A stretch of DNA of 64,000 bases, taken from assembly GCA_963668315.1 (NCBI GenBank), contig OY764216.1:4992001-5056000 (forward strand), written 5' to 3'. Position 1 is the stretch's first letter, and every line of letters starts with the position of its first letter. Positions 18,731-38,651 of the stretch are shown one piece after another. A program made the position numbers and the translations under genes. Source of the stretch: Spirochaetia bacterium (GTDB lineage Bacteria > Spirochaetota > Spirochaetia > DSM-2461). The notes under the pieces were generated by a model, which ran no database searches, was not told the origin of the DNA, and was given only the letters and a program-made list of their open reading frames with translations.

Positions 18731-19531
18731 TCATAAAGGACTCCTTATCCGGCTTAATCGGCTCTCTGCCATATGCAGGTAAACCATAGTCGAGCTAACC
18801 GACGAATGCCCCAGCATCTTCTTTATCGTCTTTACATCAGTCCCATTCTCCAGAAGATGGGTGGCAAAAGAGTGGCGTAAGGTATGACAAGTCGCTTTCC
18901 CTTCCAATCTCGATTTAAGGCAGGCCTTTTCAAATACTATCTGCAGCGTTCTAATGCTGTACTTCCTACCGTTTATCGACTTGAACAAATATTCTCGGGG
19001 CGATCTGTCGCCCATAAGATAAATAAGATCCTCCTTTAACGAGCGGGATATCAGCGTCACGCGGTCTTTCCTCCCCTTCCCCCTCCTCACGGTTAGAGTG
19101 AAACTTGCAAGATCCACGTCACGCACCCGTAAATCGACGACTTCGCTAACCCTGAGTCCGGACCCATATAGCATGGCAATCATCGTCCTATGCCTCAAAT
19201 TTTGCACAGAGGATAGGATAATCAGAATCTCTTCCCTCGAGAGAACGCGGGGCAGTTCTTTATTTCTTCTGGGTCTGTCAAGAACATAGGGACAATCCCT
19301 GTGAATAACCAACCTGTAAAAAGTTTTAATGCAGGCATAACATACCTTCACCGTAGCCGGCTTATCCTCATAAAGTTTCAGAAATCGGAAAATTTGCTCC
19401 CCGGGCTCATAATTATGTCTTCCCGCGAAAGACTCGAATTTATGGAAATAAAACAGATAAGCTCTAATCGTCTTAGCACTGTAATTGCGGATTTTCATCT
19501 CCGCCTCAAAGCGTTCCCCGTATTTAGTCAT
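18731..19531 (-). CDS. Integron-associated tyrosine recombinase (short, lacks the IntI-specific insertion)
   Basis: N-terminal RNYSAKTIRAY SAM-like domain. Catalytic R (GSGLRVSE), K (GKGRKDR), HxxR (HTLRH), H (LGHSS), Y (TMVY). Divergent from and adjacent to the cassette array. Confidence 0.9.
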   Translation of the reverse strand: MTKYGERFEAEMKIRNYSAKTIRAYLFYFHKFESFAGRHNYEPGEQIFRFLKLYEDKPATVKVCYACIKTFYRLVIHRDCPYVLDRPRRNKELPRVLSREEILIILSSVQNLRHRTMIAMLYGSGLRVSEVVDLRVRDVDLASFTLTVRRGKGRKDRVTLISRSLKEDLIYLMGDRSPREYLFKSINGRKYSIRTLQIVFEKACLKSRLEGKATCHTLRHSFATHLLENGTDVKTIKKMLGHSSVSSTMVYLHMAESRLSRIRSPL

Positions 19532-20052: not shown

Positions 20053-20137
20053 CAGACAATATATGCTCCGCTTCGCTGCGGTCTTCGACAAATCTATCAC
20101 TGCGTGATAGACTTCATATATCGTCGGAACGTTATAC
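20047..20137 (+). repeat. attC-like site 1 (short type)
   Basis: ATCTAAC...GCTTCGC...ACTTCATATATCGTCGGAACGTTATAC. Confidence 0.85.
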
Positions 20138-20176
20138 ACAATTTCTTTTTTGAAGATTTTTTTGGAGTATTTGTTG

Positions 20177-21094: not shown

Positions 21095-21117
21095 ACACCG
21101 TTCAAAAAAGAAACTGT

Positions 21118-21262
21118 GTATAACAGAGAATATACGGCTCCGCTTCGCTCCGGCCCAAATTGTTTCTTTGACAAATCTCAAAAAAAGTAGTTATACTTTT
21201 TCCGAGATTTATCAACCCCACAAGGGGGCGAAACAACTTCGTATATTCTCGAAACGTTATAG
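21118..21262 (+). repeat. attC-like site 2 (promoter-containing type)
   Basis: GTATAAC-AGAGAATATACG...CGTATATTCTC-GAAAC-GTTATAG, with internal TTGACA-18-TATACT. Confidence 0.88.
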
Positions 21263-21291
21263 GAAATTTACAATATGCGTATAAGGAAAAC

Positions 21292-21606
21292 ATGGTGGAA
21301 TTAACCTCAGAAGAATTCGACAATACATTTACATCCAATTTCAATGAAGTTACTGAAACGGCAGAAAATTTTAATGGCAAAGATTTTGATCAATATGTTA
21401 AGTCGAATTTAATTGATGAACTTGGTGTTATGCAAATTGAATATATCTATGATACTAAAGATGGAAATTGGAGACATGTCATATTCAAAACACAACTGAA
21501 AAACATTAATTATGTGGTTGTCATAGATATAAATAAGAAAACTATTCTCGGGCACCATGTTTTAGATTTAAACGAAAAATATGGATTAAACGCTTTGGGA
21601 TTGTAA
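21292..21606 (+). CDS. Cassette 3: hypothetical protein
   Basis: ORF with AAGGA RBS that fills the cassette. Confidence 0.7.
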   Translation: MVELTSEEFDNTFTSNFNEVTETAENFNGKDFDQYVKSNLIDELGVMQIEYIYDTKDGNWRHVIFKTQLKNINYVVVIDINKKTILGHHVLDLNEKYGLNALGL

Positions 21607-21611
21607 ACTTC

Positions 21612-21757
21612 CTATAACAGCAAATGATGCGGTTACGGCTTTGCCTTCTCCCAAATTGCCTTTGACAAATACAGAAAAAAGTATGTTATACTTTTCCCTG
21701 TATTTATCAACCCCTTCGGGGTACCAGGCAACTTCGCATATTTGCGAAACGTTATGT
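21612..21757 (+). repeat. attC-like site 3
   Basis: CTATAACAGCAAATGATGCGG...ACTTCGCATATTTGCGAAACGTTATGT. Confidence 0.88.
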
Positions 21758-21817
21758 TCAATGCCCATTTTTAAAAGCTTGTTGTAGCCTCGCCCTTCCA
21801 TGGGCTCGGAGAAGATT

Positions 21818-23320: not shown

Positions 23321-23397
23321 ACCTGCTACATAATGCCGTCCATGGCATTATGTAGAATTTATACGCACACATTTAAAAATGGGCACTAAACATAACA

Positions 23398-24967
23398 CAT
23401 ATTAGGACCCCATCTGTCAAGGACAAATTTTCCCCTGTTCTATCTAGGTAGAACATTTTTATATGAAGATGAACCGGACCGATAAAGAATGAAGCATTCT
23501 GTCTTGTTTCTCAAACGGGCTGCAGAAAAGATCTGCTCCAAACACACATAGACACTTTAACTCCGTAATTTTACGGCATTATAGAAATACATCCGTACCC
23601 AATCCTGTCATAATCAATGAAAACGGATTTCTTGGGGAATCCAGTTATTTTCGTGATCAGGCTGGTGCAGAATTCTTCCAGACTTTCTCAATCCTGGTTA
23701 TTTAAAACAGGTCGAAGCAGATATCCAATCAGCGAACGCATAATTCTTCTTTCAAATGATAAATACGAATGATAGTCATGCTATAAAAAGCCGTATTTAC
23801 GGTCATTATCTTTTTATGATTATAGTTATACGTTAGGCTTATCTGCTCCACCTGTTATGAACAAAAACGGTCTATATCAAAGGCTTTCCTCCTTTTGAGA
23901 ACATAATATACAGCTCTGGCTAATTTATGGGCCATGATGGAATAGGCTTTCCCGTTTCCAAACTTTTGCACTAATCTCTGATGATATGATTTTATCTCCG
24001 GGCAATAGCGGATGAACATGACGGCCGCTTCGGAGAAAGCCCACTTGAGATTAGCATTGCCGATTTTGGTATTTTTGGATGCATACTGCTTTCCTCCCGA
24101 TTCCCTCTGACACTTGACTACGCGGCAATAGGAAACGAAGTTCTGTACACGAGGAAAACGGTTAATGTCTTCAATTTCATAGAGAATAGTCAGGGCAAGC
24201 ACATCACCTATCCCGGGAATAGATTTCAACAAAGAAAATGCTAGAGGATCAGAATGATTTGCTGCCTTCAAAACACGAGATTCTATCTTCCGGATCTGTT
24301 CGGTTAACGCATCAACGACGGCTATGTCGACTTCCATATTCATTTTGACCGCCGGATCATCAAACCGTTCGAGTAATTCAGTCTTCGAAGCAATCGTAAG
24401 AGAATTGATCCCCTTCTTTATGGTATCGAAATTGTATTGGGTATTGGTATTCTGGATATGAGAAAGAAGATCTGATCTCCTGCGAACAAGATATATTCGC
24501 CGTCTGAAGAGGTCTCGAATAGCTCTGGTTTTCTGTGGGTAGACATAGGCTTGAGGGATCAGGCCACCTTTTAGCAATGCCGCTATCTTCTGGGAATCGA
24601 TTTTATCGTTCTTGGTTTTTCCTCCGCTTATAGCCTTCATGTAGAGGGCGTGGCCAAGGACAAAGGGAATACTGTTTAGCTGGCAGTAATCGGCAATCCA
24701 GTACCATGTGAAAATACACTCGACACAGATGACGATATCATTAAGAAAGGGGGCGATCGCTTGTTGAAGGTGAACCGGATCAGCGATCATGTTTTTATGA
24801 TAGACGATTTCGCCATCCTGGTTCATAATGCAGATATACATCTTTTTCGTGTGGAGATCGATTCCGCAGTAAAAGTTGTGTTGTTGGGTATAAAATTTCA
24901 TAAGGGCTCCTTTGGTTAAGGTTGTTGGAAATTTTAACATAACCACTAGGGGTCCTTATGATTATCA
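23398..24967 (-). mobile_element. IS110/IS1111-family element, copy 1 (1570 bp)
   Basis: Sub-terminal IR AGGACCCC/GGGGTCCT, CA core at both junctions, no TSD, about 460 bp of non-coding sequence downstream of the transposase. Confidence 0.92.
23855..24901 (-). CDS. IS110-family (DEDD) transposase/recombinase
   Basis: GIDLH, VECIF, KNDKIDS, SIPGIG, RESGGK. Start set to MKFYTQ, after an AAGGAG RBS. Confidence 0.93.
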   Translation of the reverse strand: MKFYTQQHNFYCGIDLHTKKMYICIMNQDGEIVYHKNMIADPVHLQQAIAPFLNDIVICVECIFTWYWIADYCQLNSIPFVLGHALYMKAISGGKTKNDKIDSQKIAALLKGGLIPQAYVYPQKTRAIRDLFRRRIYLVRRRSDLLSHIQNTNTQYNFDTIKKGINSLTIASKTELLERFDDPAVKMNMEVDIAVVDALTEQIRKIESRVLKAANHSDPLAFSLLKSIPGIGDVLALTILYEIEDINRFPRVQNFVSYCRVVKCQRESGGKQYASKNTKIGNANLKWAFSEAAVMFIRYCPEIKSYHQRLVQKFGNGKAYSIMAHKLARAVYYVLKRRKAFDIDRFCS

Positions 24968-25139
24968 GCGAATATACGCTGCGGCTTCGCCTTGGCCTTC
25001 GGCAAATAAACCCTTTGAAAATATTCTAAAAAATTATGATATAATTTCCCAGAATATTTTCAAGCCCGCAAGGGGCTGGGTTTACTTCGTATATTCGCGG
25101 AACGTTATAGGAAACATATTTTTGGAGATTATTTCGCAA

Positions 25140-25661
25140 ATGAAGAATATACTTGAAATGATAAAGAAAGATGCACGATTGTCATTCTGGAGCGAAGAAA
25201 AATTGGAACTGGAAGGCTTTGAGAGGATTTCAGCGACATTGACAACAATTCATAGATTCATTCTCAGCCCTCTCATTGCATATGTCTTCATTGCAGGTAT
25301 AACCAACATGTTACTAAATGTCTCATCAGTAGAAACATACATGATTATTCTCAGTTTTGTACTTGCCATATTCGTCTTTTACTTTTATGGCTATAGGTTT
25401 CTATCTGCTAATCATGCTTTTTTCGATAGAAAAAGTCGAATTGTTCTAATTTTTCTCCCATATAAGTATAGAATTATAAGTGTAAATAAAGACAACATTT
25501 ATTCAGTCGATGGTACAACATTTAATCCTATTGATTTCGTTACAATTAGAGTTAGAGAAGGAGACAAAGTAAGAAAATATCATTTTGTCTCTTCATTTAG
25601 ATTTTTCAAAGCATACACGGAGCATCCTATTGTTAAAAATATTAGGGAATACCTTAGATAG
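25140..25661 (+). CDS. Cassette 5: hypothetical membrane protein
   Basis: Two hydrophobic segments. ATG after GGAG at 25124; the ORF-track start at 24912 is read-through across the attC. Confidence 0.7.
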   Translation: MKNILEMIKKDARLSFWSEEKLELEGFERISATLTTIHRFILSPLIAYVFIAGITNMLLNVSSVETYMIILSFVLAIFVFYFYGYRFLSANHAFFDRKSRIVLIFLPYKYRIISVNKDNIYSVDGTTFNPIDFVTIRVREGDKVRKYHFVSSFRFFKAYTEHPIVKNIREYLR

Positions 25662-25694
25662 AACCACGTGCCAAAAAATATGCATCCTATAACA

Positions 25695-27264
25695 CATATT
25701 AGGACCCCATCTGTCAAGGACAAATTTTCCCCTGTTCTATCTAGGTAGAACATTTTTATATGAAGATGAACCGGACCGATAAAGAATGAAGCATTCTGTC
25801 TTGTTTCTCAAACGGGCTGCAGAAAAGATCTGCTCCAAACACACATAGACACTTTAACTCCGTAATTTTACGGCATTATAGAAATACATCCGTACCCAAT
25901 CCTGTCATAATCAATGAAAACGGATTTCTTGGGGAATCCAGTTATTTTCGTGATCAGGCTGGTGCAGAATTCTTCCAGACTTTCTCAATCCTGGTTATTT
26001 AAAACAGGTCGAAGCAGATATCCAATCAGCGAACGCATAATTCTTCTTTCAAATGATAAATACGAATGATAGTCATGCTATAAAAAGCCGTATTTACGGT
26101 CATTATCTTTTTATGATTATAGTTATACGTTAGGCTTATCTGCTCCACCTGTTATGAACAAAAACGGTCTATATCAAAGGCTTTCCTCCTTTTGAGAACA
26201 TAATATACAGCTCTGGCTAATTTATGGGCCATGATGGAATAGGCTTTCCCGTTTCCAAACTTTTGCACTAATCTCTGATGATATGATTTTATCTCCGGGC
26301 AATAGCGGATGAACATGACGGCCGCTTCGGAGAAAGCCCACTTGAGATTAGCATTGCCGATTTTGGTATTTTTGGATGCATACTGCTTTCCTCCCGATTC
26401 CCTCTGACACTTGACTACGCGGCAATAGGAAACGAAGTTCTGTACACGAGGAAAACGGTTAATGTCTTCAATTTCATAGAGAATAGTCAGGGCAAGCACA
26501 TCACCTATCCCGGGAATAGATTTCAACAAAGAAAATGCTAGAGGATCAGAATGATTTGCTGCCTTCAAAACACGAGATTCTATCTTCCGGATCTGTTCGG
26601 TTAACGCATCAACGACGGCTATGTCGACTTCCATATTCATTTTGACCGCCGGATCATCAAACCGTTCGAGTAATTCAGTCTTCGAAGCAATCGTAAGAGA
26701 ATTGATCCCCTTCTTTATGGTATCGAAATTGTATTGGGTATTGGTATTCTGGATATGAGAAAGAAGATCTGATCTCCTGCGAACAAGATATATTCGCCGT
26801 CTGAAGAGGTCTCGAATAGCTCTGGTTTTCTGTGGGTAGACATAGGCTTGAGGGATCAGGCCACCTTTTAGCAATGCCGCTATCTTCTGGGAATCGATTT
26901 TATCGTTCTTGGTTTTTCCTCCGCTTATAGCCTTCATGTAGAGGGCGTGGCCAAGGACAAAGGGAATACTGTTTAGCTGGCAGTAATCGGCAATCCAGTA
27001 CCATGTGAAAATACACTCGACACAGATGACGATATCATTAAGAAAGGGGGCGATCGCTTGTTGAAGGTGAACCGGATCAGCGATCATGTTTTTATGATAG
27101 ACGATTTCGCCATCCTGGTTCATAATGCAGATATACATCTTTTTCGTGTGGAGATCGATTCCGCAGTAAAAGTTGTGTTGTTGGGTATAAAATTTCATAA
27201 GGGCTCCTTTGGTTAAGGTTGTTGGAAATTTTAACATAACCACTAGGGGTCCTTATGATTATCA
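25695..27264 (-). mobile_element. IS110/IS1111-family element, copy 2
   Basis: Same ends and same transposase as copy 1, offset 2297 bp. Confidence 0.92.
26152..27198 (-). CDS. IS110-family transposase
   Basis: Protein identical to copy 1. Confidence 0.93.
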   Translation of the reverse strand: MKFYTQQHNFYCGIDLHTKKMYICIMNQDGEIVYHKNMIADPVHLQQAIAPFLNDIVICVECIFTWYWIADYCQLNSIPFVLGHALYMKAISGGKTKNDKIDSQKIAALLKGGLIPQAYVYPQKTRAIRDLFRRRIYLVRRRSDLLSHIQNTNTQYNFDTIKKGINSLTIASKTELLERFDDPAVKMNMEVDIAVVDALTEQIRKIESRVLKAANHSDPLAFSLLKSIPGIGDVLALTILYEIEDINRFPRVQNFVSYCRVVKCQRESGGKQYASKNTKIGNANLKWAFSEAAVMFIRYCPEIKSYHQRLVQKFGNGKAYSIMAHKLARAVYYVLKRRKAFDIDRFCS

Positions 27265-27436
27265 GCGAATATACGCTGCGGCTTCGCCTTGGCCTTCGGC
27301 AAATAAACCCTTTGAAAATATTCTAAAAAATTATGATATAATTTCCCAGAATATTTTCAAGCCCGCAAGGGGCTGGGTTTACTTCGTATATTCGCGGAAC
27401 GTTATAGGAAACATATTTTTGGAGATTATTTCGCAA

Positions 27437-27958
27437 ATGAAGAATATACTTGAAATGATAAAGAAAGATGCACGATTGTCATTCTGGAGCGAAGAAAAAT
27501 TGGAACTGGAAGGCTTTGAGAGGATTTCAGCGACATTGACAACAATTCATAGATTCATTCTCAGCCCTCTCATTGCATATGTCTTCATTGCAGGTATAAC
27601 CAACATGTTACTAAATGTCTCATCAGTAGAAACATACATGATTATTCTCAGTTTTGTACTTGCCATATTCGTCTTTTACTTTTATGGCTATAGGTTTCTA
27701 TCTGCTAATCATGCTTTTTTCGATAGAAAAAGTCGAATTGTTCTAATTTTTCTCCCATATAAGTATAGAATTATAAGTGTAAATAAAGACAACATTTATT
27801 CAGTCGATGGTACAACATTTAATCCTATTGATTTCGTTACAATTAGAGTTAGAGAAGGAGACAAAGTAAGAAAATATCATTTTGTCTCTTCATTTAGATT
27901 TTTCAAAGCATACACGGAGCATCCTATTGTTAAAAATATTAGGGAATACCTTAGATAG
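27437..27958 (+). CDS. Cassette 6: duplicate of the cassette 5 membrane protein
   Basis: Translation identical to 25140-25661. Confidence 0.7.
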   Translation: MKNILEMIKKDARLSFWSEEKLELEGFERISATLTTIHRFILSPLIAYVFIAGITNMLLNVSSVETYMIILSFVLAIFVFYFYGYRFLSANHAFFDRKSRIVLIFLPYKYRIISVNKDNIYSVDGTTFNPIDFVTIRVREGDKVRKYHFVSSFRFFKAYTEHPIVKNIREYLR

Positions 27959-27991
27959 AACCACGTGCCAAAAAATATGCATCCTATAACA

Positions 27992-29561
27992 CATATTAGG
28001 ACCCCATCTGTCAAGGACAAATTTTCCCCTGTTCTATCTAGGTAGAACATTTTTATATGAAGATGAACCGGACCGATAAAGAATGAAGCATTCTGTCTTG
28101 TTTCTCAAACGGGCTGCAGAAAAGATCTGCTCCAAACACACATAGACACTTTAACTCCGTAATTTTACGGCATTATAGAAATACATCCGTACCCAATCCT
28201 GTCATAATCAATGAAAACGGATTTCTTGGGGAATCCAGTTATTTTCGTGATCAGGCTGGTGCAGAATTCTTCCAGACTTTCTCAATCCTGGTTATTTAAA
28301 ACAGGTCGAAGCAGATATCCAATCAGCGAACGCATAATTCTTCTTTCAAATGATAAATACGAATGATAGTCATGCTATAAAAAGCCGTATTTACGGTCAT
28401 TATCTTTTTATGATTATAGTTATACGTTAGGCTTATCTGCTCCACCTGTTATGAACAAAAACGGTCTATATCAAAGGCTTTCCTCCTTTTGAGAACATAA
28501 TATACAGCTCTGGCTAATTTATGGGCCATGATGGAATAGGCTTTCCCGTTTCCAAACTTTTGCACTAATCTCTGATGATATGATTTTATCTCCGGGCAAT
28601 AGCGGATGAACATGACGGCCGCTTCGGAGAAAGCCCACTTGAGATTAGCATTGCCGATTTTGGTATTTTTGGATGCATACTGCTTTCCTCCCGATTCCCT
28701 CTGACACTTGACTACGCGGCAATAGGAAACGAAGTTCTGTACACGAGGAAAACGGTTAATGTCTTCAATTTCATAGAGAATAGTCAGGGCAAGCACATCA
28801 CCTATCCCGGGAATAGATTTCAACAAAGAAAATGCTAGAGGATCAGAATGATTTGCTGCCTTCAAAACACGAGATTCTATCTTCCGGATCTGTTCGGTTA
28901 ACGCATCAACGACGGCTATGTCGACTTCCATATTCATTTTGACCGCCGGATCATCAAACCGTTCGAGTAATTCAGTCTTCGAAGCAATCGTAAGAGAATT
29001 GATCCCCTTCTTTATGGTATCGAAATTGTATTGGGTATTGGTATTCTGGATATGAGAAAGAAGATCTGATCTCCTGCGAACAAGATATATTCGCCGTCTG
29101 AAGAGGTCTCGAATAGCTCTGGTTTTCTGTGGGTAGACATAGGCTTGAGGGATCAGGCCACCTTTTAGCAATGCCGCTATCTTCTGGGAATCGATTTTAT
29201 CGTTCTTGGTTTTTCCTCCGCTTATAGCCTTCATGTAGAGGGCGTGGCCAAGGACAAAGGGAATACTGTTTAGCTGGCAGTAATCGGCAATCCAGTACCA
29301 TGTGAAAATACACTCGACACAGATGACGATATCATTAAGAAAGGGGGCGATCGCTTGTTGAAGGTGAACCGGATCAGCGATCATGTTTTTATGATAGACG
29401 ATTTCGCCATCCTGGTTCATAATGCAGATATACATCTTTTTCGTGTGGAGATCGATTCCGCAGTAAAAGTTGTGTTGTTGGGTATAAAATTTCATAAGGG
29501 CTCCTTTGGTTAAGGTTGTTGGAAATTTTAACATAACCACTAGGGGTCCTTATGATTATCA
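27992..29561 (-). mobile_element. IS110/IS1111-family element, copy 3
   Basis: Same ends and same transposase as copy 1. Confidence 0.92.
28449..29495 (-). CDS. IS110-family transposase
   Basis: Protein identical to copy 1. Confidence 0.93.
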   Translation of the reverse strand: MKFYTQQHNFYCGIDLHTKKMYICIMNQDGEIVYHKNMIADPVHLQQAIAPFLNDIVICVECIFTWYWIADYCQLNSIPFVLGHALYMKAISGGKTKNDKIDSQKIAALLKGGLIPQAYVYPQKTRAIRDLFRRRIYLVRRRSDLLSHIQNTNTQYNFDTIKKGINSLTIASKTELLERFDDPAVKMNMEVDIAVVDALTEQIRKIESRVLKAANHSDPLAFSLLKSIPGIGDVLALTILYEIEDINRFPRVQNFVSYCRVVKCQRESGGKQYASKNTKIGNANLKWAFSEAAVMFIRYCPEIKSYHQRLVQKFGNGKAYSIMAHKLARAVYYVLKRRKAFDIDRFCS

Positions 29562-29853
29562 GCGTCTATATGCTCCGCTTCGCTCCGGGCTTCGCCAAAT
29601 TTAAATCAAAAAGAATTACAGCGAAAATAACAAATAGTACGCTATAATAGATTCTATACAACAATAAAATGCTACGGTCATGGCTATCGTCACGGTTTCT
29701 GCTTGCGCACAAACCGCGCCAACTTCACGCCATGCCGCAGATTTTGGCGTTGTATAGAAATCGGATATGCAAGCACGTGTTTTTGATTTAAACTTCATAT
29801 AAACGCGAAACGTTAGGTGTAATGTTCTTTTTATACAGCGTAAAGGATAAGAA

Positions 29854-30303
29854 ATGAAAACAAAATTTTCACATGTAAATATTATTAGTAGTGATTGGAA
29901 AAAATTAGCAGATTTTTATATTAGAGTTTTTGATTGTAAACCAAAACTTCCGGAGAGAAATCTTTCAGGTGATTGGGTTGATAAATTAACTGATTTATCA
30001 AATGCTAGAATAAAAGGGATGCACTTAATCCTCCCGGGTTATGACACCGATGGTCCCACTTTAGAGATCTTTGAATACAATGCAAATATAAGTAATAATG
30101 GTAAAAATATAAATCTGGAAGGGTTTGGTCATATTGCTTTTGCGGTAGAGGATGTTGAGGAAAAGTTAAATCTTTTATTGGATAACGGTGGATCTTCAGT
30201 CGGTCAATTGATTGACGCTGAAATAGATGGAGTCGGCAAAATCTCAGTTGTTTATGCAAAAGATCCAGAAGGCAATATTTTAGAAATTCAAAAGTGGGAA
30301 TAA
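29854..30303 (+). CDS. Cassette 7: VOC/glyoxalase-family protein
   Basis: HVNIIS...FY, LEIFEY, GFGHIAFAVEDV, YAKDPEGNILEI. Confidence 0.88.
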   Translation: MKTKFSHVNIISSDWKKLADFYIRVFDCKPKLPERNLSGDWVDKLTDLSNARIKGMHLILPGYDTDGPTLEIFEYNANISNNGKNINLEGFGHIAFAVEDVEEKLNLLLDNGGSSVGQLIDAEIDGVGKISVVYAKDPEGNILEIQKWE

Positions 30304-30315
30304 AAAGAACACTAC

Positions 30316-30459
30316 ACCTAACAGCAAATGATGCGGTTCCGCTCCGCTTCACCCAAATTGCCTTTGACAAATACCCGTTCAATTATGATATAATTGAACA
30401 GCCATTTATCAACCCCTATTGGGGTACAGGCAACTTCGCATATTTGCGGAACGTTACCC
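30316..30459 (+). repeat. attC-like site 7
   Basis: ACCTAACAGCAAATGATGCGG...ACTTCGCATATTTGCGGAACGTTACCC. Confidence 0.88.
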
Positions 30460-30523
30460 ATTATTATTTGGCTTATAATATTTTTTTTCATCATTCGCCA
30501 TCCTTGGCTCATTAGGGGAAATT

Positions 30524-30994
30524 TTGGATTTATCTGAATATAGTGTTAAAGAATTACTGATACTAATCTCTGATATCATGAAAGAGCTGATCTCAAGAAG
30601 AATTATTAGAACATTTAATAATCCTGTTGGTGATTATACGGAGTGGCTTGTTTCATCACGGTTAAATTATACGCTTGAAAATAATTCAAAAGCTGGTTTC
30701 GATGCAACTTCCAGTACCGGACAAAGGGTTCAGATAAAGGGAAGAAGAGTCACTCCATGGAATAAATCTCACCAGTTAAGTGCAATCAGAAATCTTGATT
30801 CAAAGGATTTTGATACACTAGCAGCTGTTATTTTTGATGAAGATTACAACGTAATTGAAGCGAAAATGATTCCTCAGGAAATCATTCATGAGTATGCAAA
30901 TTACCGAGAGCATGTTAATGCACATATTTTAATCTTACAAGGTGATATTCTCAACGACAATCGAGTAAAAGATATCAAAAAGGATTTGATATAG
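30524..30994 (+). CDS. Cassette 8: small PD-(D/E)XK-like nuclease-fold protein
   Basis: NNPVGDYTEWLV...GFDAT...RVQIKGRR gives an E...D...QxK pattern. Confidence 0.6.
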   Translation: MDLSEYSVKELLILISDIMKELISRRIIRTFNNPVGDYTEWLVSSRLNYTLENNSKAGFDATSSTGQRVQIKGRRVTPWNKSHQLSAIRNLDSKDFDTLAAVIFDEDYNVIEAKMIPQEIIHEYANYREHVNAHILILQGDILNDNRVKDIKKDLI

Positions 30995-31057
30995 ATCGTG
31001 TTTAAAAGTACATCCTTGTACTTTTAAAGAACCTATACGCTGTCGCCAAATAACAAC

Positions 31058-31201
31058 GGGTAACAGCGAATTATGCGGTTTCGCTTCGCTCCACCAAAAT
31101 TGCCTTTGACAAATACCCGTTCAATTATGATATAATTGAACAGCCATTTATCAACCCCGGTGGGGTACCAGGCAACTTCGCATATTCGCGAAACGTTATA
31201 T
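31058..31201 (+). repeat. attC-like site 8
   Basis: GGGTAACAGCGAATTATGCGG...ACTTCGCATATTCGCGAAACGTTATAT. Confidence 0.88.
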
Positions 31202-31215
31202 TCAATAGCCAATTC

Positions 31216-32031
31216 ATGAAAATCTTTTTTAAATTTGGAGAAAATCCTTTGAAAGATTATGGGGAATCAAAACAATTACAGTTTCTCAACAAAACTTACA
31301 GTTTTATAAAAGACTGTATTGGAGAATCTCCAGCAGATGTTTTTATTCTAGACAATAGAAAGACATCTGAAAAATTGTTCCTTAAAATCAGCTCTAAAGA
31401 TTTTTCCTTCACTACATATTCTGTTGAACGGGAAATGCTTGTCTTGAAATGGCTAGCAGACAAAACGGATGTACCAACTGTTGTAGACTATTTTGAAAAT
31501 GAGGATTATCAATTTCTTCTGATGAAAAGCATTATTGGATTGCCAATTCTGGACACCGCACCTTCTGGAAATACTATCGTTGATTCTTTTGTCAATGGAA
31601 TAAAGACCTTTCAATCCATCAATGTTGATGATTGCCCTTTTGATAGTTCTATGAAAAAACGATTAAAGGAACTGAAATACCTGGTTAATAAAAATTTGGC
31701 AGCATTTGATGACTTTTATGAAAGTGAGTTGCCATTTGATTCCCCTGAGGATTTAATCAGTTATTTAGAAAATAATATGCATCCAGAGGAAATTGTTTTT
31801 TCCCATGGAGATTTTCAAGAAAGTAATATTTTCATCTCTAAGAAATTAGGTTTCATAGATTGGGGGCGTGGGGGAAAGGCTGATAAATGGTGTGATATTG
31901 CTCATGCTTATCAAAACATTAAAGAGCAATTGGAAGATCAGAAATATATAAACCGATTCTTTGAAAAACTAGAATTAGAACCTGATTGGGACAAGATAAA
32001 TTTCCATTTATGGCTCGATGAATTGTTCTGA
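31216..32031 (+). CDS. Cassette 9: aminoglycoside 3'-phosphotransferase, APH(3')-like
   Basis: GESPADVF, LFLKIS, YSVERE, CPFD, FSHGDFQESNIF, GFIDWGRGGKADKWCDIA and C-terminal LDELF, as in APH(3')-III-type enzymes. The true start may be TTG at 31249. Confidence 0.85.
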   Translation: MKIFFKFGENPLKDYGESKQLQFLNKTYSFIKDCIGESPADVFILDNRKTSEKLFLKISSKDFSFTTYSVEREMLVLKWLADKTDVPTVVDYFENEDYQFLLMKSIIGLPILDTAPSGNTIVDSFVNGIKTFQSINVDDCPFDSSMKKRLKELKYLVNKNLAAFDDFYESELPFDSPEDLISYLENNMHPEEIVFSHGDFQESNIFISKKLGFIDWGRGGKADKWCDIAHAYQNIKEQLEDQKYINRFFEKLELEPDWDKINFHLWLDELF

Positions 32032-32055
32032 CACCGTTCATGAATTGGCTACTGA

Positions 32056-32201
32056 ATATAACAGCCAATATACGGCTCCGCTTCGCTCCGGCCCAAATTA
32101 ACCCTTTGACCAATTCTGAAAAAAGTATGATATACTTTTCCCGAAATTGCTCAACCCCACAAGGGGCCGGGTTTACTTCGTATATTGGCGAAACGTTAGC
32201 A
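32056..32201 (+). repeat. attC-like site 9
   Basis: ATATAACAGCCAATATACG...CGTATATTGGCGAAACGTTAGCA. Confidence 0.88.
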
Positions 32202-32269
32202 AAATTTTTGTTTTCGGCTTCGTTATCGGTTTTCTGACCATCCGTGGTCAGAAAAAATGAAGGAGTAAC

Positions 32270-33055
32270 ATGGAAATTCAACATCTTGAGAAATACTATA
32301 ATAATATTGATGAGGATGGAAGGCTCCTTTCAAAATATGGTTCAGTCGAATTTTTAACCACTATGAAATATATTCAAAAATATCTTACGCAGGATATGAA
32401 GATTTTGGATATTGGGGCTGGAACAGGTATTTACAGCCTGGCTTTAGCTGATAAGTGTCATCATGTTGATGCCGTAGAGCTGATACAGAAAAATATTGAC
32501 ATATTCAAATTAAAAATAGAAAAGCATAAGAATATTACAGTGCAAAAAGGAAACGCTCTAGATTTGAGTTTTCTGGAAGATAATTTCTATGATATTACGT
32601 TGTTATTTGGCCCTATGTACCATCTTTATACAGAAGAGCATAAACTCAAAGCTCTTTCAGAAGCAATAAGGGTAACAAAACCAAAAGGCTATATTCTAAT
32701 AGCATACTGTATGTCGGATGCAACTATTTTAAATTATGGGTTTGTAAAGAAAAATATTGTGGATCTTATTGAAAAAGAGATGTTAGATACGGAGGAATTT
32801 AAGCCCCGGTCAGAACCGATAGATCTATTTGAACTTCATAGAAAGGAAGATATAGACCGCCTAAATAATAAATTTAATGTAAAAAGATTAAACTATGTAG
32901 CTACAGATGGTTTTACAAATCATTTTAGAGAAACCGTGAATAATATGAGTGACAAAGAATTTGAGATTTATATGAAATACCATTTTTTCACGTGTGAACG
33001 AGAAGATATGCAAGGAATAACTCATCATAGTCTGGATATATTACAAAAACAATAA
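32270..33055 (+). CDS. Cassette 10: class I SAM-dependent methyltransferase
   Basis: ILDIGAGTG, GNALDL, GPMYHL. Confidence 0.88.
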   Translation: MEIQHLEKYYNNIDEDGRLLSKYGSVEFLTTMKYIQKYLTQDMKILDIGAGTGIYSLALADKCHHVDAVELIQKNIDIFKLKIEKHKNITVQKGNALDLSFLEDNFYDITLLFGPMYHLYTEEHKLKALSEAIRVTKPKGYILIAYCMSDATILNYGFVKKNIVDLIEKEMLDTEEFKPRSEPIDLFELHRKEDIDRLNNKFNVKRLNYVATDGFTNHFRETVNNMSDKEFEIYMKYHFFTCEREDMQGITHHSLDILQKQ

Positions 33056-33125
33056 AAGAATGAGGAAATACTATACATCCCTGTATAGTATTATCTTCTA
33101 TCAGAAAATCCGAAAACAAAACTTC

Positions 33126-33326
33126 AGCTAACAGCGTTTATATGCTCCGCTACGCTCCGGGCTTCGCCAAATTTAAATCAAAAAGAATTATTTTAAAAAA
33201 AGAACAACAATTACGCTATAATAGATTCTATACAACAAGGATTTGCTACGGATTTGCCTATGTCACATTTCTTGTTTTCACAAGAAATTCGCCAATTACG
33301 GCAAACCGCAGAAATCGTCGTTCTAA
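33126..33326 (+). repeat. attC-like site 10 (long type, ends at the inner GTT)
   Basis: Left arm matches site 6; the sequence diverges right after the inner CGTT at 33319-33322. Confidence 0.75.
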
Positions 33327-33346
33327 AGACAAAGAAGGGGGGGGGA

Positions 33347-33871
33347 ATGAGACTAGTTATACGATTAGCCACAAAAGAAGATTCATCAAGTATTCTTAGA
33401 GTAATTAATCAATCATATAATCCATATAAAAACTTAATACCAGCTAATTGTGGATTTGTAACTTCTATAGAAGAAATAATCAAAATTATGAAAGATGAGA
33501 GCTCCTCATGTTGGGTAGCTGAAAATAATGATAGTGTTATTGGTGTTGCTACTGGAATTACAATTGCTCCAAGAGCATATCATCTTAAGCTTTTATTTAT
33601 CGCAGAACATGCGCAACGCAAAGGTATAGCTTCGAACTTATTATCAACTTATGAAAATTCAGGCAAAAAAAAAGGGTATAAATTATTAACTACCAATTAT
33701 CAGAAATGGGCTCCATGGTCAAGAAACTTCTATCTTAAGCAAGGATATAAGGAATATATTGAGGGGGATGAATTAGATTTTCCAGATTTGCATGAAACGA
33801 TTTCTTTTTATAGAAGGATTGGTAAGTTAAATAATGATCGAAAATGTTTTATATGGAAAAAGACATGCTAA
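33347..33871 (+). CDS. Cassette 11: GNAT-family acetyltransferase
   Basis: IRLAT, AQRKGIASNLL acetyl-CoA motif A, FYLKQGY. Confidence 0.85.
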   Translation: MRLVIRLATKEDSSSILRVINQSYNPYKNLIPANCGFVTSIEEIIKIMKDESSSCWVAENNDSVIGVATGITIAPRAYHLKLLFIAEHAQRKGIASNLLSTYENSGKKKGYKLLTTNYQKWAPWSRNFYLKQGYKEYIEGDELDFPDLHETISFYRRIGKLNNDRKCFIWKKTC

Positions 33872-33944
33872 GGTTACGGGTAAGGAGCACTAAATGCCAT
33901 CCGTGGCATTTACTGGACATACAGACAATAGGAATGGGCACTAA

Positions 33945-34090
33945 ACATAACAGCAAATGATGCGGTTATGGCTTTGCCTTCACCCAAATTGCCTTTGACA
34001 AATCCAAGAAAAAGCACGTATACTTTTCCTTAGATTTATCAACCCCTAAAGGGGTACCAGGCAACTTCGCATATTTGCAAAACGTTAAAT
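33945..34090 (+). repeat. attC-like site 11
   Basis: ACATAACAGCAAATGATGCGG...ACTTCGCATATTTGCAAAACGTTAAAT. Confidence 0.88.
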
Positions 34091-34093
34091 GAA

Positions 34094-34585
34094 ATGTTTT
34101 GGGAGAAGATTTTTTTACAAGGAATTATTTTGAAACAACCAAGAATTGTAACTGTTTGCGGAGCTTTAGTTATTAACAATAATCAAGTTCTCATAATTCA
34201 GGAAGCTAATAAAAAGGCTTTTGGGAAATTTAATATTCCTGGAGGTCATGTTGATTTAGATGAAGATCTGAAGGAAACGGCTATCCGAGAAGTTAAAGAA
34301 GAGACGGGAATTCCCATCATTGTTGAAGATTTTCTTGGAGTCTATACTCATCAAGCACAAGATAAATCAACAATCATCAAAATAATATTTGTTGGAAAAC
34401 CCTGTGATTTTGAAATCAATTTTCCTAAGGATGAGATACTAAACGCTACTTGGATGAACATTGATGATTTTCTGAAAATCGAAGCTGATAAGTTACGTTC
34501 ACAAGATTTATTTTCAATAATTACAGATTATAGAAACAAGAATCAATGTAATTTATCATTAGTGAAAGATATTGTTAGAGTATAA
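34094..34585 (+). CDS. Cassette 12: NUDIX hydrolase
   Basis: Nudix box GGHVDLDEDLKETAIREVKEETG. The true start may be TTG near 34130. Confidence 0.9.
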   Translation: MFWEKIFLQGIILKQPRIVTVCGALVINNNQVLIIQEANKKAFGKFNIPGGHVDLDEDLKETAIREVKEETGIPIIVEDFLGVYTHQAQDKSTIIKIIFVGKPCDFEINFPKDEILNATWMNIDDFLKIEADKLRSQDLFSIITDYRNKNQCNLSLVKDIVRV

Positions 34586-34617
34586 TTTTATTCTGACCCA
34601 TTCTCCCAAAACACTTC

Positions 34618-34761
34618 ATCTAACAGCAAATGATGCGGTTACGCTTCGCTTCACCCAAATTGCCTTTGACAAATCCAGAAAAAAGTATGATATACTTTTC
34701 CCTGTATTTATCAACCCCTGCGGGGTACAAGGCAACTTCATATATTCGCGAAACGTTAAAT
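34618..34761 (+). repeat. attC-like site 12
   Basis: ATCTAACAGCAAATGATGCGG...ACTTCATATATTCGCGAAACGTTAAAT. Confidence 0.88.
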
Positions 34762-34818
34762 ATAATTCAGGTTAGATGGATACTTGATTCAGCCATCCGT
34801 GGCCTCGAAGGAGAATGC

Positions 34819-35648
34819 ATGAGCAAAGATCACACTCCTATTTTAAGAAATTACAGGAATAATTGGTACAATGAAGATTATCTCTTGATTTAATTGCAAA
34901 AAGAATTGATCTTTATTCATGTGTAGACATTTTAGATGTTGGCTGTGGTGAATTTCATTGGACCCTATTACTTGCAAAATACTTTCCAGATAATTTTCAT
35001 TTAGTAGGTATTGATTTGAATGAGATAACTTTCTCAAAACTCACAGATATTAAAGAATTATATCCCAATTGGAATTTTATAAAAGGTGATATTAAGAGAT
35101 TGCCTTTTGAGGATAATTCATTTGATCTTGTTACATGTCAGACATTACTTATCCATCTAGACTCTCCGATTTTAGCTGTAAAAGAGATGTTCAGAGTACT
35201 AAAGCCAGGCGGAAAAGTACTCATTTCAGAACCTAATAATTTTTCTCAATCGACATTTAGAAATAGCTGGAATATAGATCATAGTACCCAGAAAAGATTG
35301 GATAGTATAACTGAAAAATTGAAAAGTGATGAGAAGAAAAAGAAAAATGGCCATGGTGATAATTCAATAGGAGAAATTGTTCCCATTCATCTCAGAAAAA
35401 ACGGTTTCTCAGAAATTAGAACCTATATGAATGATAAGGTTACCTCTCTTGTTCCTCCATATTCAACAATAGAAGAACAACAAAAAATTGATATGCTAAC
35501 TCATTTCTCAGAAAACTATCCATTTGAAATGTCAGAACAAGATAAAGAAGAATTAAATGATGAAATCCAAATGATCAGTCGAGAAGAGTATATTGCATAT
35601 AATCCAACAATGTTATTCCTGACTATGGGAGTCAAACCTCAGATATAA
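34819..35648 (+). pseudogene. Cassette 13: frameshifted SAM-dependent methyltransferase
   Basis: The frame from ATG 34819 (after AAGGAG) stops at 34893. The other frame continues ...ILDVGCGEFHW...GDIKRLPFEDNSFDLV. Consistent with a +2 (CT) duplication near 34883. Confidence 0.75.
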
Positions 35649-35700
35649 AAGTACGTCCTTGTACTTTTATTCAATCTTTTCCGTAATAACCTGGAACTAC

Positions 35701-35893
35701 ATTTAACAGCGAATGATATGCTCCACTTCGTTTCGGGCTTCGCCAAATTTCTATCAAAAAGAATTAGTTCCGAAATAGAGAATTTGTATGCTACAATGAA
35801 CAACAATATAACCAAGATTTGCTACTGTCACATTTCTTGTTTTCACAAGAAATCCGCCAGCTTCACGGTCTGCAGCAGAAATCGACGTTATCT
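35701..35893 (+). repeat. attC-like site 13 (long type, ends at the inner GTT)
   Basis: ATTTAACAGCGAATGATATG...AATATAAC...GAAATCGACGTTATCT. Confidence 0.75.
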
Positions 35894-35923
35894 TGACTAA
35901 ATATTTTTGAGGAGAAAATAAAA

Positions 35924-36319
35924 ATGTTAGGATTAACTTTATATATAGAAAATTCTAATGAAGCTTTAGATTTTTATTGTAATGCCTTCAAATTGGAATT
36001 GGGATATAATGTTAAAAATGATAATGGAACATATTTACATGCTGAACTTTTTAGACAAGGTTTTGGTGGTTTTGCAATAAGTGAATCAGATGATAAAATA
36101 ATTCAAAATGCAATGCTTGCAGCTAAACAGCCAACAATAAGTTTAGGGATGAATTTTGAAAGCAATGATGAATTAGATCATGCTTATGAAGTACTAGGAG
36201 AAGAAGGTCATATCCTACGTCCAATTGGTTCTCTTCCTTGGTCTCCATATTCAGCAGATGTTGTAGATAAGTTTGGGGTTTGTTGGTATTTATATGTAAC
36301 TCAGCATAAACCTGAATAA
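35924..36319 (+). CDS. Cassette 14: VOC/PhnB-family protein
   Basis: EALDFYCNAF, HAEL, PWSPYSADVVDKFGVCW. Confidence 0.85.
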   Translation: MLGLTLYIENSNEALDFYCNAFKLELGYNVKNDNGTYLHAELFRQGFGGFAISESDDKIIQNAMLAAKQPTISLGMNFESNDELDHAYEVLGEEGHILRPIGSLPWSPYSADVVDKFGVCWYLYVTQHKPE

Positions 36320-36382
36320 TATTTGTTTCTTAACCATTCGGCTCAATGCCTCATTAAAGGCTTTTTCAGGGCGTTTACTGCC

Positions 36383-36501
36383 TTATAATAGCAAGTGAAT
36401 ATTTGATCCGAAATGTTCAATCCTTCAACTGTAGTCGTTCGGCATCCGTGCCTCACTACTTGGTAAATCCCGACGCATACTACTTATAACAGACGATATA
36501 T
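36383..36501 (+). repeat. Degenerate attC-like site 14
   Basis: TTATAATAGC...AGACGATATAT with the core mutated GTT to GAT. The downstream GATATATGTAATGATTTTTTG still complements the end of cassette 15. Confidence 0.55.
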
Positions 36502-36536
36502 GTAATGATTTTTTGAGATTTATACAGGAGGGACAT

Positions 36537-36905
36537 ATGCCTGATTTTGATACAATTGACGATTATATCAATTCCCAACCAGAGGGTACAAAAGAAGCTC
36601 TATTTAAATTGAAGGATTGTATACTCAAAGCTGCTCCTGATGCAAAAGAATTATTCAATTATAGTATTCCTGCATTTGCTTTAGTAGAAAATGGGAAAAG
36701 AGAACAACAGATAATGATCGCAGGATACAAAAAGCATGTTGGGTTTTATCCACATCCAACAACTATTGAAAAATTCGCTAATAAATTAACTATATATAAA
36801 CAAGGTAAAGGATCTATTCAATTTCCAATAAACAAACCAATTCCTTGTGAACTGGTAATTGAAATGGTTAAGTATAGAAGAATGCGTGTTAAGGCTGGTA
36901 AATAA
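36537..36905 (+). CDS. Cassette 15: DUF1801/YdhG-like protein
   Basis: TIDDYI, NYSIPAF, AGYKKHVGFYP, KGSIQFP. ATG after GGAGG. Confidence 0.82.
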   Translation: MPDFDTIDDYINSQPEGTKEALFKLKDCILKAAPDAKELFNYSIPAFALVENGKREQQIMIAGYKKHVGFYPHPTTIEKFANKLTIYKQGKGSIQFPINKPIPCELVIEMVKYRRMRVKAGK

Positions 36906-36933
36906 ATGACGCAAAAAGTCACTACATATAACA

Positions 36934-38503
36934 CATATTAGGACCCCATCTGTCAAGGACAAATTTTCCCCTGTTCTATCTAGGTAGAACATTTTTATAT
37001 GAAGATGAACCGGACCGATAAAGAATGAAGCATTCTGTCTTGTTTCTCAAACGGGCTGCAGAAAAGATCTGCTCCAAACACACATAGACACTTTAACTCC
37101 GTAATTTTACGGCATTATAGAAATACATCCGTACCCAATCCTGTCATAATCAATGAAAACGGATTTCTTGGGGAATCCAGTTATTTTCGTGATCAGGCTG
37201 GTGCAGAATTCTTCCAGACTTTCTCAATCCTGGTTATTTAAAACAGGTCGAAGCAGATATCCAATCAGCGAACGCATAATTCTTCTTTCAAATGATAAAT
37301 ACGAATGATAGTCATGCTATAAAAAGCCGTATTTACGGTCATTATCTTTTTATGATTATAGTTATACGTTAGGCTTATCTGCTCCACCTGTTATGAACAA
37401 AAACGGTCTATATCAAAGGCTTTCCTCCTTTTGAGAACATAATATACAGCTCTGGCTAATTTATGGGCCATGATGGAATAGGCTTTCCCGTTTCCAAACT
37501 TTTGCACTAATCTCTGATGATATGATTTTATCTCCGGGCAATAGCGGATGAACATGACGGCCGCTTCGGAGAAAGCCCACTTGAGATTAGCATTGCCGAT
37601 TTTGGTATTTTTGGATGCATACTGCTTTCCTCCCGATTCCCTCTGACACTTGACTACGCGGCAATAGGAAACGAAGTTCTGTACACGAGGAAAACGGTTA
37701 ATGTCTTCAATTTCATAGAGAATAGTCAGGGCAAGCACATCACCTATCCCGGGAATAGATTTCAACAAAGAAAATGCTAGAGGATCAGAATGATTTGCTG
37801 CCTTCAAAACACGAGATTCTATCTTCCGGATCTGTTCGGTTAACGCATCAACGACGGCTATGTCGACTTCCATATTCATTTTGACCGCCGGATCATCAAA
37901 CCGTTCGAGTAATTCAGTCTTCGAAGCAATCGTAAGAGAATTGATCCCCTTCTTTATGGTATCGAAATTGTATTGGGTATTGGTATTCTGGATATGAGAA
38001 AGAAGATCTGATCTCCTGCGAACAAGATATATTCGCCGTCTGAAGAGGTCTCGAATAGCTCTGGTTTTCTGTGGGTAGACATAGGCTTGAGGGATCAGGC
38101 CACCTTTTAGCAATGCCGCTATCTTCTGGGAATCGATTTTATCGTTCTTGGTTTTTCCTCCGCTTATAGCCTTCATGTAGAGGGCGTGGCCAAGGACAAA
38201 GGGAATACTGTTTAGCTGGCAGTAATCGGCAATCCAGTACCATGTGAAAATACACTCGACACAGATGACGATATCATTAAGAAAGGGGGCGATCGCTTGT
38301 TGAAGGTGAACCGGATCAGCGATCATGTTTTTATGATAGACGATTTCGCCATCCTGGTTCATAATGCAGATATACATCTTTTTCGTGTGGAGATCGATTC
38401 CGCAGTAAAAGTTGTGTTGTTGGGTATAAAATTTCATAAGGGCTCCTTTGGTTAAGGTTGTTGGAAATTTTAACATAACCACTAGGGGTCCTTATGATTA
38501 TCA
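36934..38503 (-). mobile_element. IS110/IS1111-family element, copy 4
   Basis: Same ends and same transposase as copy 1, with independent flanks. Confidence 0.92.
37391..38437 (-). CDS. IS110-family transposase
   Basis: Protein identical to copy 1. Confidence 0.93.
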   Translation of the reverse strand: MKFYTQQHNFYCGIDLHTKKMYICIMNQDGEIVYHKNMIADPVHLQQAIAPFLNDIVICVECIFTWYWIADYCQLNSIPFVLGHALYMKAISGGKTKNDKIDSQKIAALLKGGLIPQAYVYPQKTRAIRDLFRRRIYLVRRRSDLLSHIQNTNTQYNFDTIKKGINSLTIASKTELLERFDDPAVKMNMEVDIAVVDALTEQIRKIESRVLKAANHSDPLAFSLLKSIPGIGDVLALTILYEIEDINRFPRVQNFVSYCRVVKCQRESGGKQYASKNTKIGNANLKWAFSEAAVMFIRYCPEIKSYHQRLVQKFGNGKAYSIMAHKLARAVYYVLKRRKAFDIDRFCS

Positions 38504-38651
38504 GCGAATATGCGGTTCCGCTGCGCTTCACCAAAATTGCCCGTTGGGCAACTTCACCTATTCGCGAAACGTTATCGGCAATAAGCGCCAAAGCATTTAT
38601 TATTCAAAGGAAAATCCGGCGTTCTGCCGGATAAAATGGAGGAAATTAAAA

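What the first reader, a model, noticed from the sequence alone, without database searches (positions are those of the whole stretch)
23396..38503. IS110/IS1111 element that targets one dinucleotide in these attC-like sites
Seen: four 1570-bp copies, all antisense to the cassette genes, each inserted at TAA-CA-GCG directly after the inverse core. CA is present at both junctions and there is no TSD. Three different right flanks imply at least three independent insertions. Only sites reading TAACAGCG are hit; sites 8, 10 and 13 have this sequence and remain empty, while AGCA, AGAG, AGAC and AGCC variants are untouched. Known: IS1111-attC elements target canonical attC sites, and IS110-family enzymes are guided by bridge/seek RNAs. 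Inference: this is an RNA-guided parasite specialised on this cassette system. Splitting the attC would lock the neighbouring cassettes until the IS excises.
Basis: partly seen in the sequence, partly recalled or inferred. Interest (0 to 1): 0.8.

Follow-up and report, generated by a model that had tools for sequence, protein, structure and literature searches.

The report
Guide-retuned IS110 hunting atypical attC sites
Five identical copies of a jumping gene sit at the same base of unusual gene-cassette recombination sites, and a short guide sequence inside the element matches exactly the sites that are occupied, so it is likely an RNA-guided parasite of integron arrays whose guide was naturally retuned to this atypical cassette system.

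Summary
Observation confirmed. Four identical 1570-bp IS110-family copies sit antisense at TAA|CA|GCG. A fifth copy lies in a second array, in the same kind of site.

The 459-nt non-coding 3' end holds guide-like segments matching both target halves (TTCGC-TG, ATAAC) and the donor end. The left-guide match co-varies with targets in two separate sets of relatives (96/170 vs 61 shuffled; 92/130 vs 60).

All 5 of 21 attC-like sites reading ATAACAGCG are occupied; none of the other 16 is.

It is not an IS1111-attC member. The transposase is 20-22% identical over the C-terminal part only, it cuts at R'' rather than six bases further in, and its guide order is IS110-type. It belongs to a widespread ISGsu4/ISMahy12-like clade that mostly sits in canonical attC. 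This branch is retuned to atypical sites beside a short integrase lacking the IntI insertion. One relative genome carries both types, largely sorted by array.

Against: a sister element with the same guide sits in a mismatched site, and no RNA or circle was seen. The scan met this clade before on other DNA. New variant of a known kind.

The parts
23396..24967 (-). IS copy 1 (both CA core dinucleotides included)
23855..24901 (-). IS110-family recombinase, 348 aa, D15/E61/D99/D102 and S268 present
   Evidence: Pfam PF01548+PF02371, NF033542 above cutoff, residues
23398..23854 (-). 3' non-coding region (about 459 nt), candidate bridge RNA
23730..23739 (-). left target guide GCGTTCGC + core TG
   Evidence: matches target; covaries in relatives
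23642..23650 (-). right target guide ATAAC + TG
   Evidence: complementary to right target; A before TAAC separates occupied from empty sites
23543..23549 (-). left donor guide (one wobble to the element's own right end)
   Evidence: covaries with right end in relatives
23401..23411 (-). right sub-terminal inverted repeat, 3 nt from the core
   Evidence: 10 of 11 match
24949..24959 (-). left sub-terminal inverted repeat, 6 nt from the core
23415..23420 (-). TTGACA -35 box, predicted to form a junction promoter with a GATAAT -10 in the circle
   Evidence: sequence; junction read; conserved in relatives
25693..27264 (-). IS copy 2
27990..29561 (-). IS copy 3, in a long site matched by only 3 left-guide bases plus wobbles
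36932..38503 (-). IS copy 4
23396..27989 (.). two identical 2297-bp units (IS + rest of site + cassette gene)
   Evidence: depth
24966..25110 (+). 3' part of the split attC-like site 4 (arms, 9-nt L'-R' spacer, GTTA core)
31061..31198 (+). empty site 8, G before TAAC
33129..33322 (+). empty site 10, C before TAAC, no outer 3' arm found
35704..35889 (+). empty site 13, T before TAAC, no outer 3' arm found
18731..19531 (-). 266-aa tyrosine recombinase heading the array, without the roughly 38-aa insertion of a canonical IntI

Best explanation
This is an intact, recently expanded IS110-family insertion sequence that sits at one CA dinucleotide on the edge of the inverse core of attC-like sites and likely finds them with a bridge RNA encoded in its 3' non-coding end. 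Shown: five identical copies, all at that CA; guide-like segments matching left target, right target and donor end; covariation of guides with targets across relatives; and occupancy of all five ATAACAGCG sites and no other site of the family. Inferred by analogy with IS621 and ISEc11: the element excises as a circle, the end-to-end junction forms a promoter, and the recombinase-RNA complex pairs the left guide with the bottom strand and the right guide with the top strand, recombining at the 2-bp core. The clade reads the AAC inverse core shared by attC sites; this branch changed its left guide to TTCGC and the base before TAAC to A, which fits the atypical sites of an integrase lacking the IntI insertion. 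Insertion replaces TAAC by TATC on the site's 3' part and would weaken that site until excision.
For: Copies and flanks. Occupancy 5 of 5 against 0 of 16, p 4.9e-5, or 2.1e-4 for 4 independent events; the rule was noticed after seeing the sites, but its deciding base is read from the guide. The 12-mer ATAACAGCGAAT occurs 4 times in the IS-free genome and all 4 are occupied. Left guide against target, positions -5 to -1: 96 of 170 vs 61.3+-5.9 shuffled in 34 guide sets, and 92 of 130 vs 59.9+-5.1 in 26 separate metagenome sets. Donor guide variable base: 29 of 34 vs 12.8 and 25 of 26 vs 11.4. Sister L083 (64%) changed both guides and its target matches both. A roughly 94% identical element in run X8 covers the same site type and has a guide change that improves pairing (my reading of tables 3 and 8). 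In G061 the 73% sister lies in the atypical array, while 8 of 9 copies of a 54% lineage with another guide lie in a canonical array beside a full IntI. R-box helix lost in the fold with the IS end.
Against: The 73% sister L001 has the same guide core but sits in a site with two left-guide mismatches, while a perfectly matching site in the same array is empty. Copy 3 here pairs only 3 contiguous left-guide bases, and 28 of 41 empty non-attC 9-mer matches pair as well or better by a simple count. The right-guide base covaried in the first set (23 of 34 vs 16.8, p 0.005) but not in the second (19 of 26 vs 19.6; nearly all C). The shuffles ignore relatedness. No conserved RNA fold was recovered (single-sequence z -0.01; consensus fold with 0 pairs), and no right donor guide was identified. 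The ninth copy of the G061 second lineage is in no evident attC.
Confidence: 0.82

Rival explanations
1. Sequence plus structure: guide pairing is needed, but the extruded attC hairpin is a second gate, as reported for ISPpu10 at REP sites.
For: All 5 copies are in attC-like sites although 41 other ATAACAGCG 9-mers exist, and copy 3 has a weak left match. The left target here is itself one arm of the attC stem. The ISPpu10 preprint reports such a gate (10.64898/2026.03.19.712850, abstract and section 7).
Against: 38 of the 41 empty 9-mers lie in long ORFs, so selection against gene disruption can explain them. Local hairpin energy does not separate occupied from empty matches (occupied -2.7 to -5.8; empty median -3.2). 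The 12-mer alone picks 4 of 5 copies.
Confidence: 0.3
2. The copies mostly arrived or multiplied with cassettes (integrase shuffling, IS-IS recombination), so the apparent specificity reflects few real insertions.
For: Copies 1-3 sit in a perfect 2297-bp tandem repeat, and recombination between copies can swap left and right flanks.
Against: Four different left and four different right flanks among five copies, in two arrays 1.6 Mb apart. 94 of 103 relatives with a readable right end have NAA before the core.
Confidence: 0.08
3. The element is an ordinary member of the described IS1111-attC group (ISKpn4, ISPst6, ISPa21, ISPa25).
For: attC target, antisense orientation, 3' non-coding region and sub-terminal repeats 6 and 3 nt from the ends.
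Against: Four ISKpn4-like transposases align at 20-22% over only 138-181 C-terminal residues and group with a classical IS1111 enzyme on a long separate branch. They insert six bases 3' of TAAC, have 257-266-nt non-coding ends and the opposite guide order.
Confidence: 0.04

Closest known systems
ISGsu4 and ISMahy12 (ISfinder; proteins seen in supplement file 6 of PMC11187229)
   Same: The only two of that set sharing the CGIDLH and WAFSEA motifs and the MxFY...Y start with this enzyme (compared by eye, identity not computed).
   Different: No attC targeting or guide analysis for them turned up in my searches (one search lists one unrelated paper). Their own targets were not examined here.
IS1111-attC group (ISKpn4, ISPst6, ISPa21, ISPa25; Tetu & Holmes 2008, Post & Hall 2009, both known to me only through citations; seekRNA shown in PMC11187229)
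   Same: RNA-guided DEDD elements that insert antisense at one position of attC, with a 3' non-coding region and sub-terminal inverted repeats.
   Different: Separate enzyme lineage (20-22%, C-terminal part only); cut at the R'' edge rather than six bases further in; 459 vs about 260 nt non-coding end; reversed guide order; here an atypical attC family.
IS621 / ISCro4 bridge recombinases (PMC11208160; PDB 8wt6, 9t56)
   Same: DEDD plus serine catalytic set, 2-bp core at both junctions, left target guide before right target guide, then a donor guide.
   Different: Guide region lies downstream of the gene, long sub-terminal repeats, core TG, weak sequence likeness (E about 1e-9), extra look-alike loops of unknown role.
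ISPpu10 (bioRxiv 10.64898/2026.03.19.712850)
   Same: IS110 element aimed at a structured repeat and found at the borders of tandem amplifications.
   Different: Targets REP sequences; its stem-loop gate was tested there and is untested here.

Membership tests
IS110 family (bridge recombinases) | DEDD RuvC-like domain plus Tnp domain with catalytic serine | tested here: met
   PF01548 + PF02371; NF033542 200 bits vs cutoff 140; D15, E61, D99, D102, S268
IS110 family (bridge recombinases) | 2-bp core at both junctions, no longer target duplication | tested here: met
   CA at both junctions of all five copies
IS110 family (bridge recombinases) | non-coding end with segments matching target and donor that covary with them | tested here: met
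   left target guide and left donor guide covary in two sets; right target guide in one of two; right donor guide not identified
IS110 family (bridge recombinases) | structured RNA expressed and bound by the recombinase; circular intermediate | tested here: inconclusive
   no significant fold; no circle junction among the joints shown, 12 joints not shown; binding not testable here
IS1111 group | sub-terminal inverted repeats of 11-13 bp, 7 (or 6) and 3 nt from the ends; long non-coding region downstream | tested here: met
   11 bp, 10 of 11 matching, 6 and 3 nt; 459-nt downstream region; criteria from PMC11187229
IS1111 group | transposase related to IS1111 over its full length | tested here: not met
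   21% to a classical IS1111-type enzyme, E 1e-7; separate long branch
IS1111 group | top-strand complement precedes bottom-strand match in the RNA | tested here: not met
   the guide identical to the top strand (pairs with the bottom) comes first, taking the top strand as the IS-sense strand; rule from PMC11187229
IS1111-attC group | inserts antisense at one position of attC | tested here: met
IS1111-attC group | same insertion position as ISKpn4-type elements | tested here: not met
   4 of 4 ISKpn4-like loci lie six bases 3' of TAAC (remnant L178 similar); this element lies at the last base of TAAC
IS1111-attC group | transposase related to TnpKpn4 | tested here: not met
   20-22% over 138-181 residues; ISPa21 and ISPa25 not aligned
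canonical integron (host system) | IntI-specific insertion in the catalytic domain | tested here: not met
   about 38 residues shorter than the full IntI of G061 in that region; TIGR02249 184 bits vs cutoff 265
canonical integron (host system) | attC with R''/R' complementarity and 5 and 5-6 nt spacers | tested here: inconclusive
   R'' is complementary to each cassette's own start, but the L'-R' spacer is 9 nt; recombination untested

The most novel reading that the evidence does not exclude
An IS110 lineage independent of IS1111-attC has tracked integrons across many phyla by reading the invariant inverse core. One branch reprogrammed its guide to colonise an undescribed integron class (short integrase without the IntI insertion, attC with a 9-nt right spacer), so that sibling elements in one genome partition the two integron types. 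The attC hairpin acts as a second recognition gate, and the element gives the array a new way to duplicate cassettes.
Probability: 0.3. Interest if true: 0.72.

Novelty: new variant of a known kind. Interest (0 to 1): 0.52.

Why it matters
It is a natural reprogramming series for a bridge recombinase. One guide base (A before TAAC) separates all occupied from all empty candidate sites in this genome, which makes a direct bench prediction: site 8 should become a target after a single guide change. It shows attC parasitism arising convergently in a separate IS110 lineage with mixed IS110 and IS1111 features. The clade's insertion points also mark inverse cores, so they can flag atypical cassette arrays; here that is an array run by a recombinase lacking the IntI insertion, for which I found no description. 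The principle, RNA-guided IS110 elements aimed at attC, is already known, which caps the score.

Tried and rejected
RNA fold of the guide region gave no signal alone (z -0.01) or as a consensus of 33 sequences (0 pairs); the alignment was not structure-aware. A second look-alike loop matched targets weakly (37 of 130 vs 29.7, p 0.014, with unanchored rows scored as non-matches) and does not match this element's targets, so I do not count it as a guide. No right donor guide was found by eye. No RNA holder was listed. No circle junction or empty-site joint was among the joints shown. Run X4 had patchy depth; one contig ran from the IS into a single flank, which I could not interpret. A second read-laying was not obtained, so circles and empty sites remain untested in other runs. 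Local hairpin energy did not separate occupied from empty 9-mers. The strict pattern search found 15 sites and missed some; profile searches replaced it. The attC classifier had no shuffled control. Rows dropped before counts: set 1 used 41 of 77 loci plus own with both ends readable, reduced to 40 distinct non-coding regions and 34 guide sets; set 2 had 83 loci with a transposase, 44 complete, 11 without anchors, leaving 32 rows and 26 guide sets. Tetu & Holmes 2008 was not held; Post & Hall 2009 was not looked up. File 5 of the PMC11187229 supplements was unreadable, and figure images (target logos, trees) could not be seen; they may bear on cut point and on which elements are the phylogenetic exceptions. 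ISfinder itself could not be searched.
Full report
OBSERVATION. The window holds four copies of one element, identical over 1572 bp including a CA at each end, starting at 23396, 25693, 27990 and 36932. Each encodes on the minus strand a 348-aa IS110-family recombinase (PF01548 and PF02371; NF033542 at 200 bits against a cutoff of 140) with D15, E61, D99, D102 and S268. All junctions read TAA|CA on the left and CA|GCG on the right. Copies 1-3 lie in two identical 2297-bp units. A genome search found exactly one more copy, at 3441061-3442632, in a second cassette array and at the same CA of the same site family, with a 28-bp duplication of its right end. That gives four independent insertions and one duplication. 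In runs X1 and X2 (one sample, possibly the source) the IS contig had about five times, and the bin with the duplicated cassette about 1.8 times, single-copy depth.

THE TARGETS. Profile searches of the IS-free genome gave 21 site 5' ends: 14 in the window, 6 in the second array, 1 elsewhere. The sites are attC-like: the inverse core is complementary to each cassette's own start and the arms pair. But the right spacer is 9 nt, and the 266-aa integrase at 18731-19531 lacks about 38 residues present in a full IntI from G061 (the name I2 for that insertion is recalled). The same site type lies beside homologous integrases in L170, L175 and G061.

ANATOMY. In IS sense there are 66 nt before the gene and 459 nt after it. 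An 11-bp sub-terminal repeat (10 of 11 matching) lies 6 and 3 nt from the cores. A TTGACA near the right end would pair with GATAAT across the circle junction (inferred promoter). An alignment of 40 non-coding regions shows three conserved anchors: a variable stretch plus TG before ATTGG, a TAAC plus TG about 90 nt later, and ATAAGTG before TTTGG. In this element they read GCGTTCGC-TG (23739-23730), ATAAC-TG (23650-23642) and ATGTG-TG (23549-23543). They match the left target, the right target and the element's own right end.

IS THE MATCH REAL? Among 34 distinct guide sets from genome contigs, positions -5 to -1 of the left guide equal the element's own target in 96 of 170 cells against 61.3+-5.9 for shuffled pairings. 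The base before TAAC matches in 23 of 34 against 16.8, and the variable donor base in 29 of 34 against 12.8. In 26 separate sets from metagenomes the left guide gave 92 of 130 against 59.9 and the donor base 25 of 26 against 11.4, but the base before TAAC did not replicate (19 of 26 against 19.6; almost all C). The shuffles do not correct for relatedness. The sister L083 (64%) changed both target guides, and its target matches both. No conserved fold was recovered, no RNA run was listed, and no right donor guide was found.

WHY SOME SITES ARE EMPTY. The right guide predicts A before TAAC. All five sites reading ATAACAGCG are occupied. The five empty TAACAGCG sites have G, C, T, C and C there, and the six ATAAC sites without GCG are empty: 5 of 5 against 0 of 16 (p 4.9e-5; 2.1e-4 for four events). 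I noticed the rule after seeing the sites, but the deciding base comes from the guide. The 9-mer occurs 46 times in the genome, and 41 lie outside the site family and are empty. The 12-mer ATAACAGCGAAT occurs 4 times, all occupied. Copy 3 has only three contiguous left-guide matches; 28 of the 41 empty matches pair as well by a simple count, but 38 of them are in long ORFs. Context, structure or selection therefore adds to sequence, and I cannot say which.

RELATIVES. 77 genome loci (49-73%) and 79 metagenome loci share the same ends. The three bases before the core are NAA in 46 of 51 and 48 of 52 loci with a readable right end. At least 15 of 39 rebuilt targets have canonical attC geometry within 150 bp by my reading of an uncontrolled heuristic; several (L005, L006, L011, L035, L068) show no clear attC. 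In a tree this element and L001 form a branch (support 0.999) nested among elements in canonical sites. Genome G061 is a natural control. Its 73% sister lies in the atypical array, about 22 kb from a 48% identical short integrase, while 8 of 9 copies of a 54% lineage with another guide lie in canonical attC beside a full IntI; none of those nine is in the atypical array. The ninth sits in no evident attC. Against strict guide rules, that sister has the same guide core but occupies a site with two mismatches, and a perfect site in its array is empty. Only 3 of 60 related genomes searched carry a clade member at E 1e-60.

MECHANISM. Most likely (0.82) the element excises as a circle, expresses recombinase and bridge RNA from the junction promoter, pairs the left guide with the bottom strand and the right guide with the top strand, and recombines at the 2-bp core. 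These steps are inferred from IS621 and ISEc11 (PMC11208160, passages; PMC11187229, passages and section 6). After insertion the site's 3' part begins with TATC instead of TAAC, and the predicted bottom-strand fold loses the R helix while keeping the L stem. So the split site is probably weak. Intact sites further out could still move the block, and recombination between copies 1 and 3 would simply explain the tandem repeat.

COMPARISON. attC targeting by the IS1111-attC group is known (Tetu & Holmes 2008 and Post & Hall 2009, seen only as citations; restated in PMC11616780 and PMC9229058, passages). Four ISKpn4-like plasmid elements align to this enzyme at 20-22% over 138-181 C-terminal residues, group with a classical IS1111 enzyme, insert six bases 3' of TAAC and have 257-266-nt ends. 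The guide order here is the IS110 one. The nearest named elements are ISGsu4 and ISMahy12, found by motif in supplement file 6 of PMC11187229. I also read supplement 1 of that paper in full as text, searched file 3, and read passages of its preprint. The ISPpu10 preprint (abstract, section 7, passages) gives the precedent for a structural gate. PMC8618304 passages gave nothing relevant. Searches listed no paper on this clade at attC or on the atypical integron; the library lacks most subscription journals.

EARLIER SCAN NOTES. The scan met this clade on other DNA (e1-2767947) and other IS110 branches at attC. These are unchecked notes; I had reached the clade assignment before seeing them.

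VERDICT. Real and well supported. It works like IS1111-attC elements but is not one. It is a new variant, notable for a one-base occupancy rule and for natural retuning to an atypical integron. Interest 0.52.

Noticed in passing
window 18731-19531 and sites 20050-38575; L170, L175, L194-L195: Integron-like array headed by a 266-aa recombinase without the IntI insertion, next to tRNA-Arg and tRNA-Asp, with attC-like sites whose right spacer is 9 nt; the same pairing recurs in three other genomes. No description found in my searches.
   Followed up: partly
window 29560-29817, 33129-33322, 35704-35889; genome 3438006, 4547361: Long sites appear to carry a second, nested palindrome ending in GTT; sites 10, 13 and 3438006 lack the outer 3' arm.
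   Followed up: no
window 36484-36500: A truncated 5' half of a site (TAACAGAC type) sits at the start of the cassette before copy 4.
   Followed up: no
genome 3442633-3442660; L080 right end: Short tandem duplications of the element's right end (28 bp in the fifth copy, about 23 bp in a plasmid relative), cause unknown.
   Followed up: no
window 23609-23625 and 23805-23890 (copy 1, minus strand): Two further look-alike guide loops in the non-coding end, one overlapping the gene's stop; only a weak match to targets.
   Followed up: partly
genome 3437800-3445300: Second array of the same atypical sites with no homologue of the short integrase beside it; it shares a methyltransferase cassette with window 32270-33055.
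   Followed up: partly
window 31216-32031: Cassette encoding an APH-family phosphotransferase (PF01636), possibly an aminoglycoside resistance gene.
   Followed up: no
L078 1068-3544: A classical IS1111-type element lies just upstream of a clade member on a Vibrio plasmid.
   Followed up: partly
window 41652-42674: Tandem 228-bp repeats inside a 990-aa Listeria-Bacteroides repeat surface protein gene.
   Followed up: no
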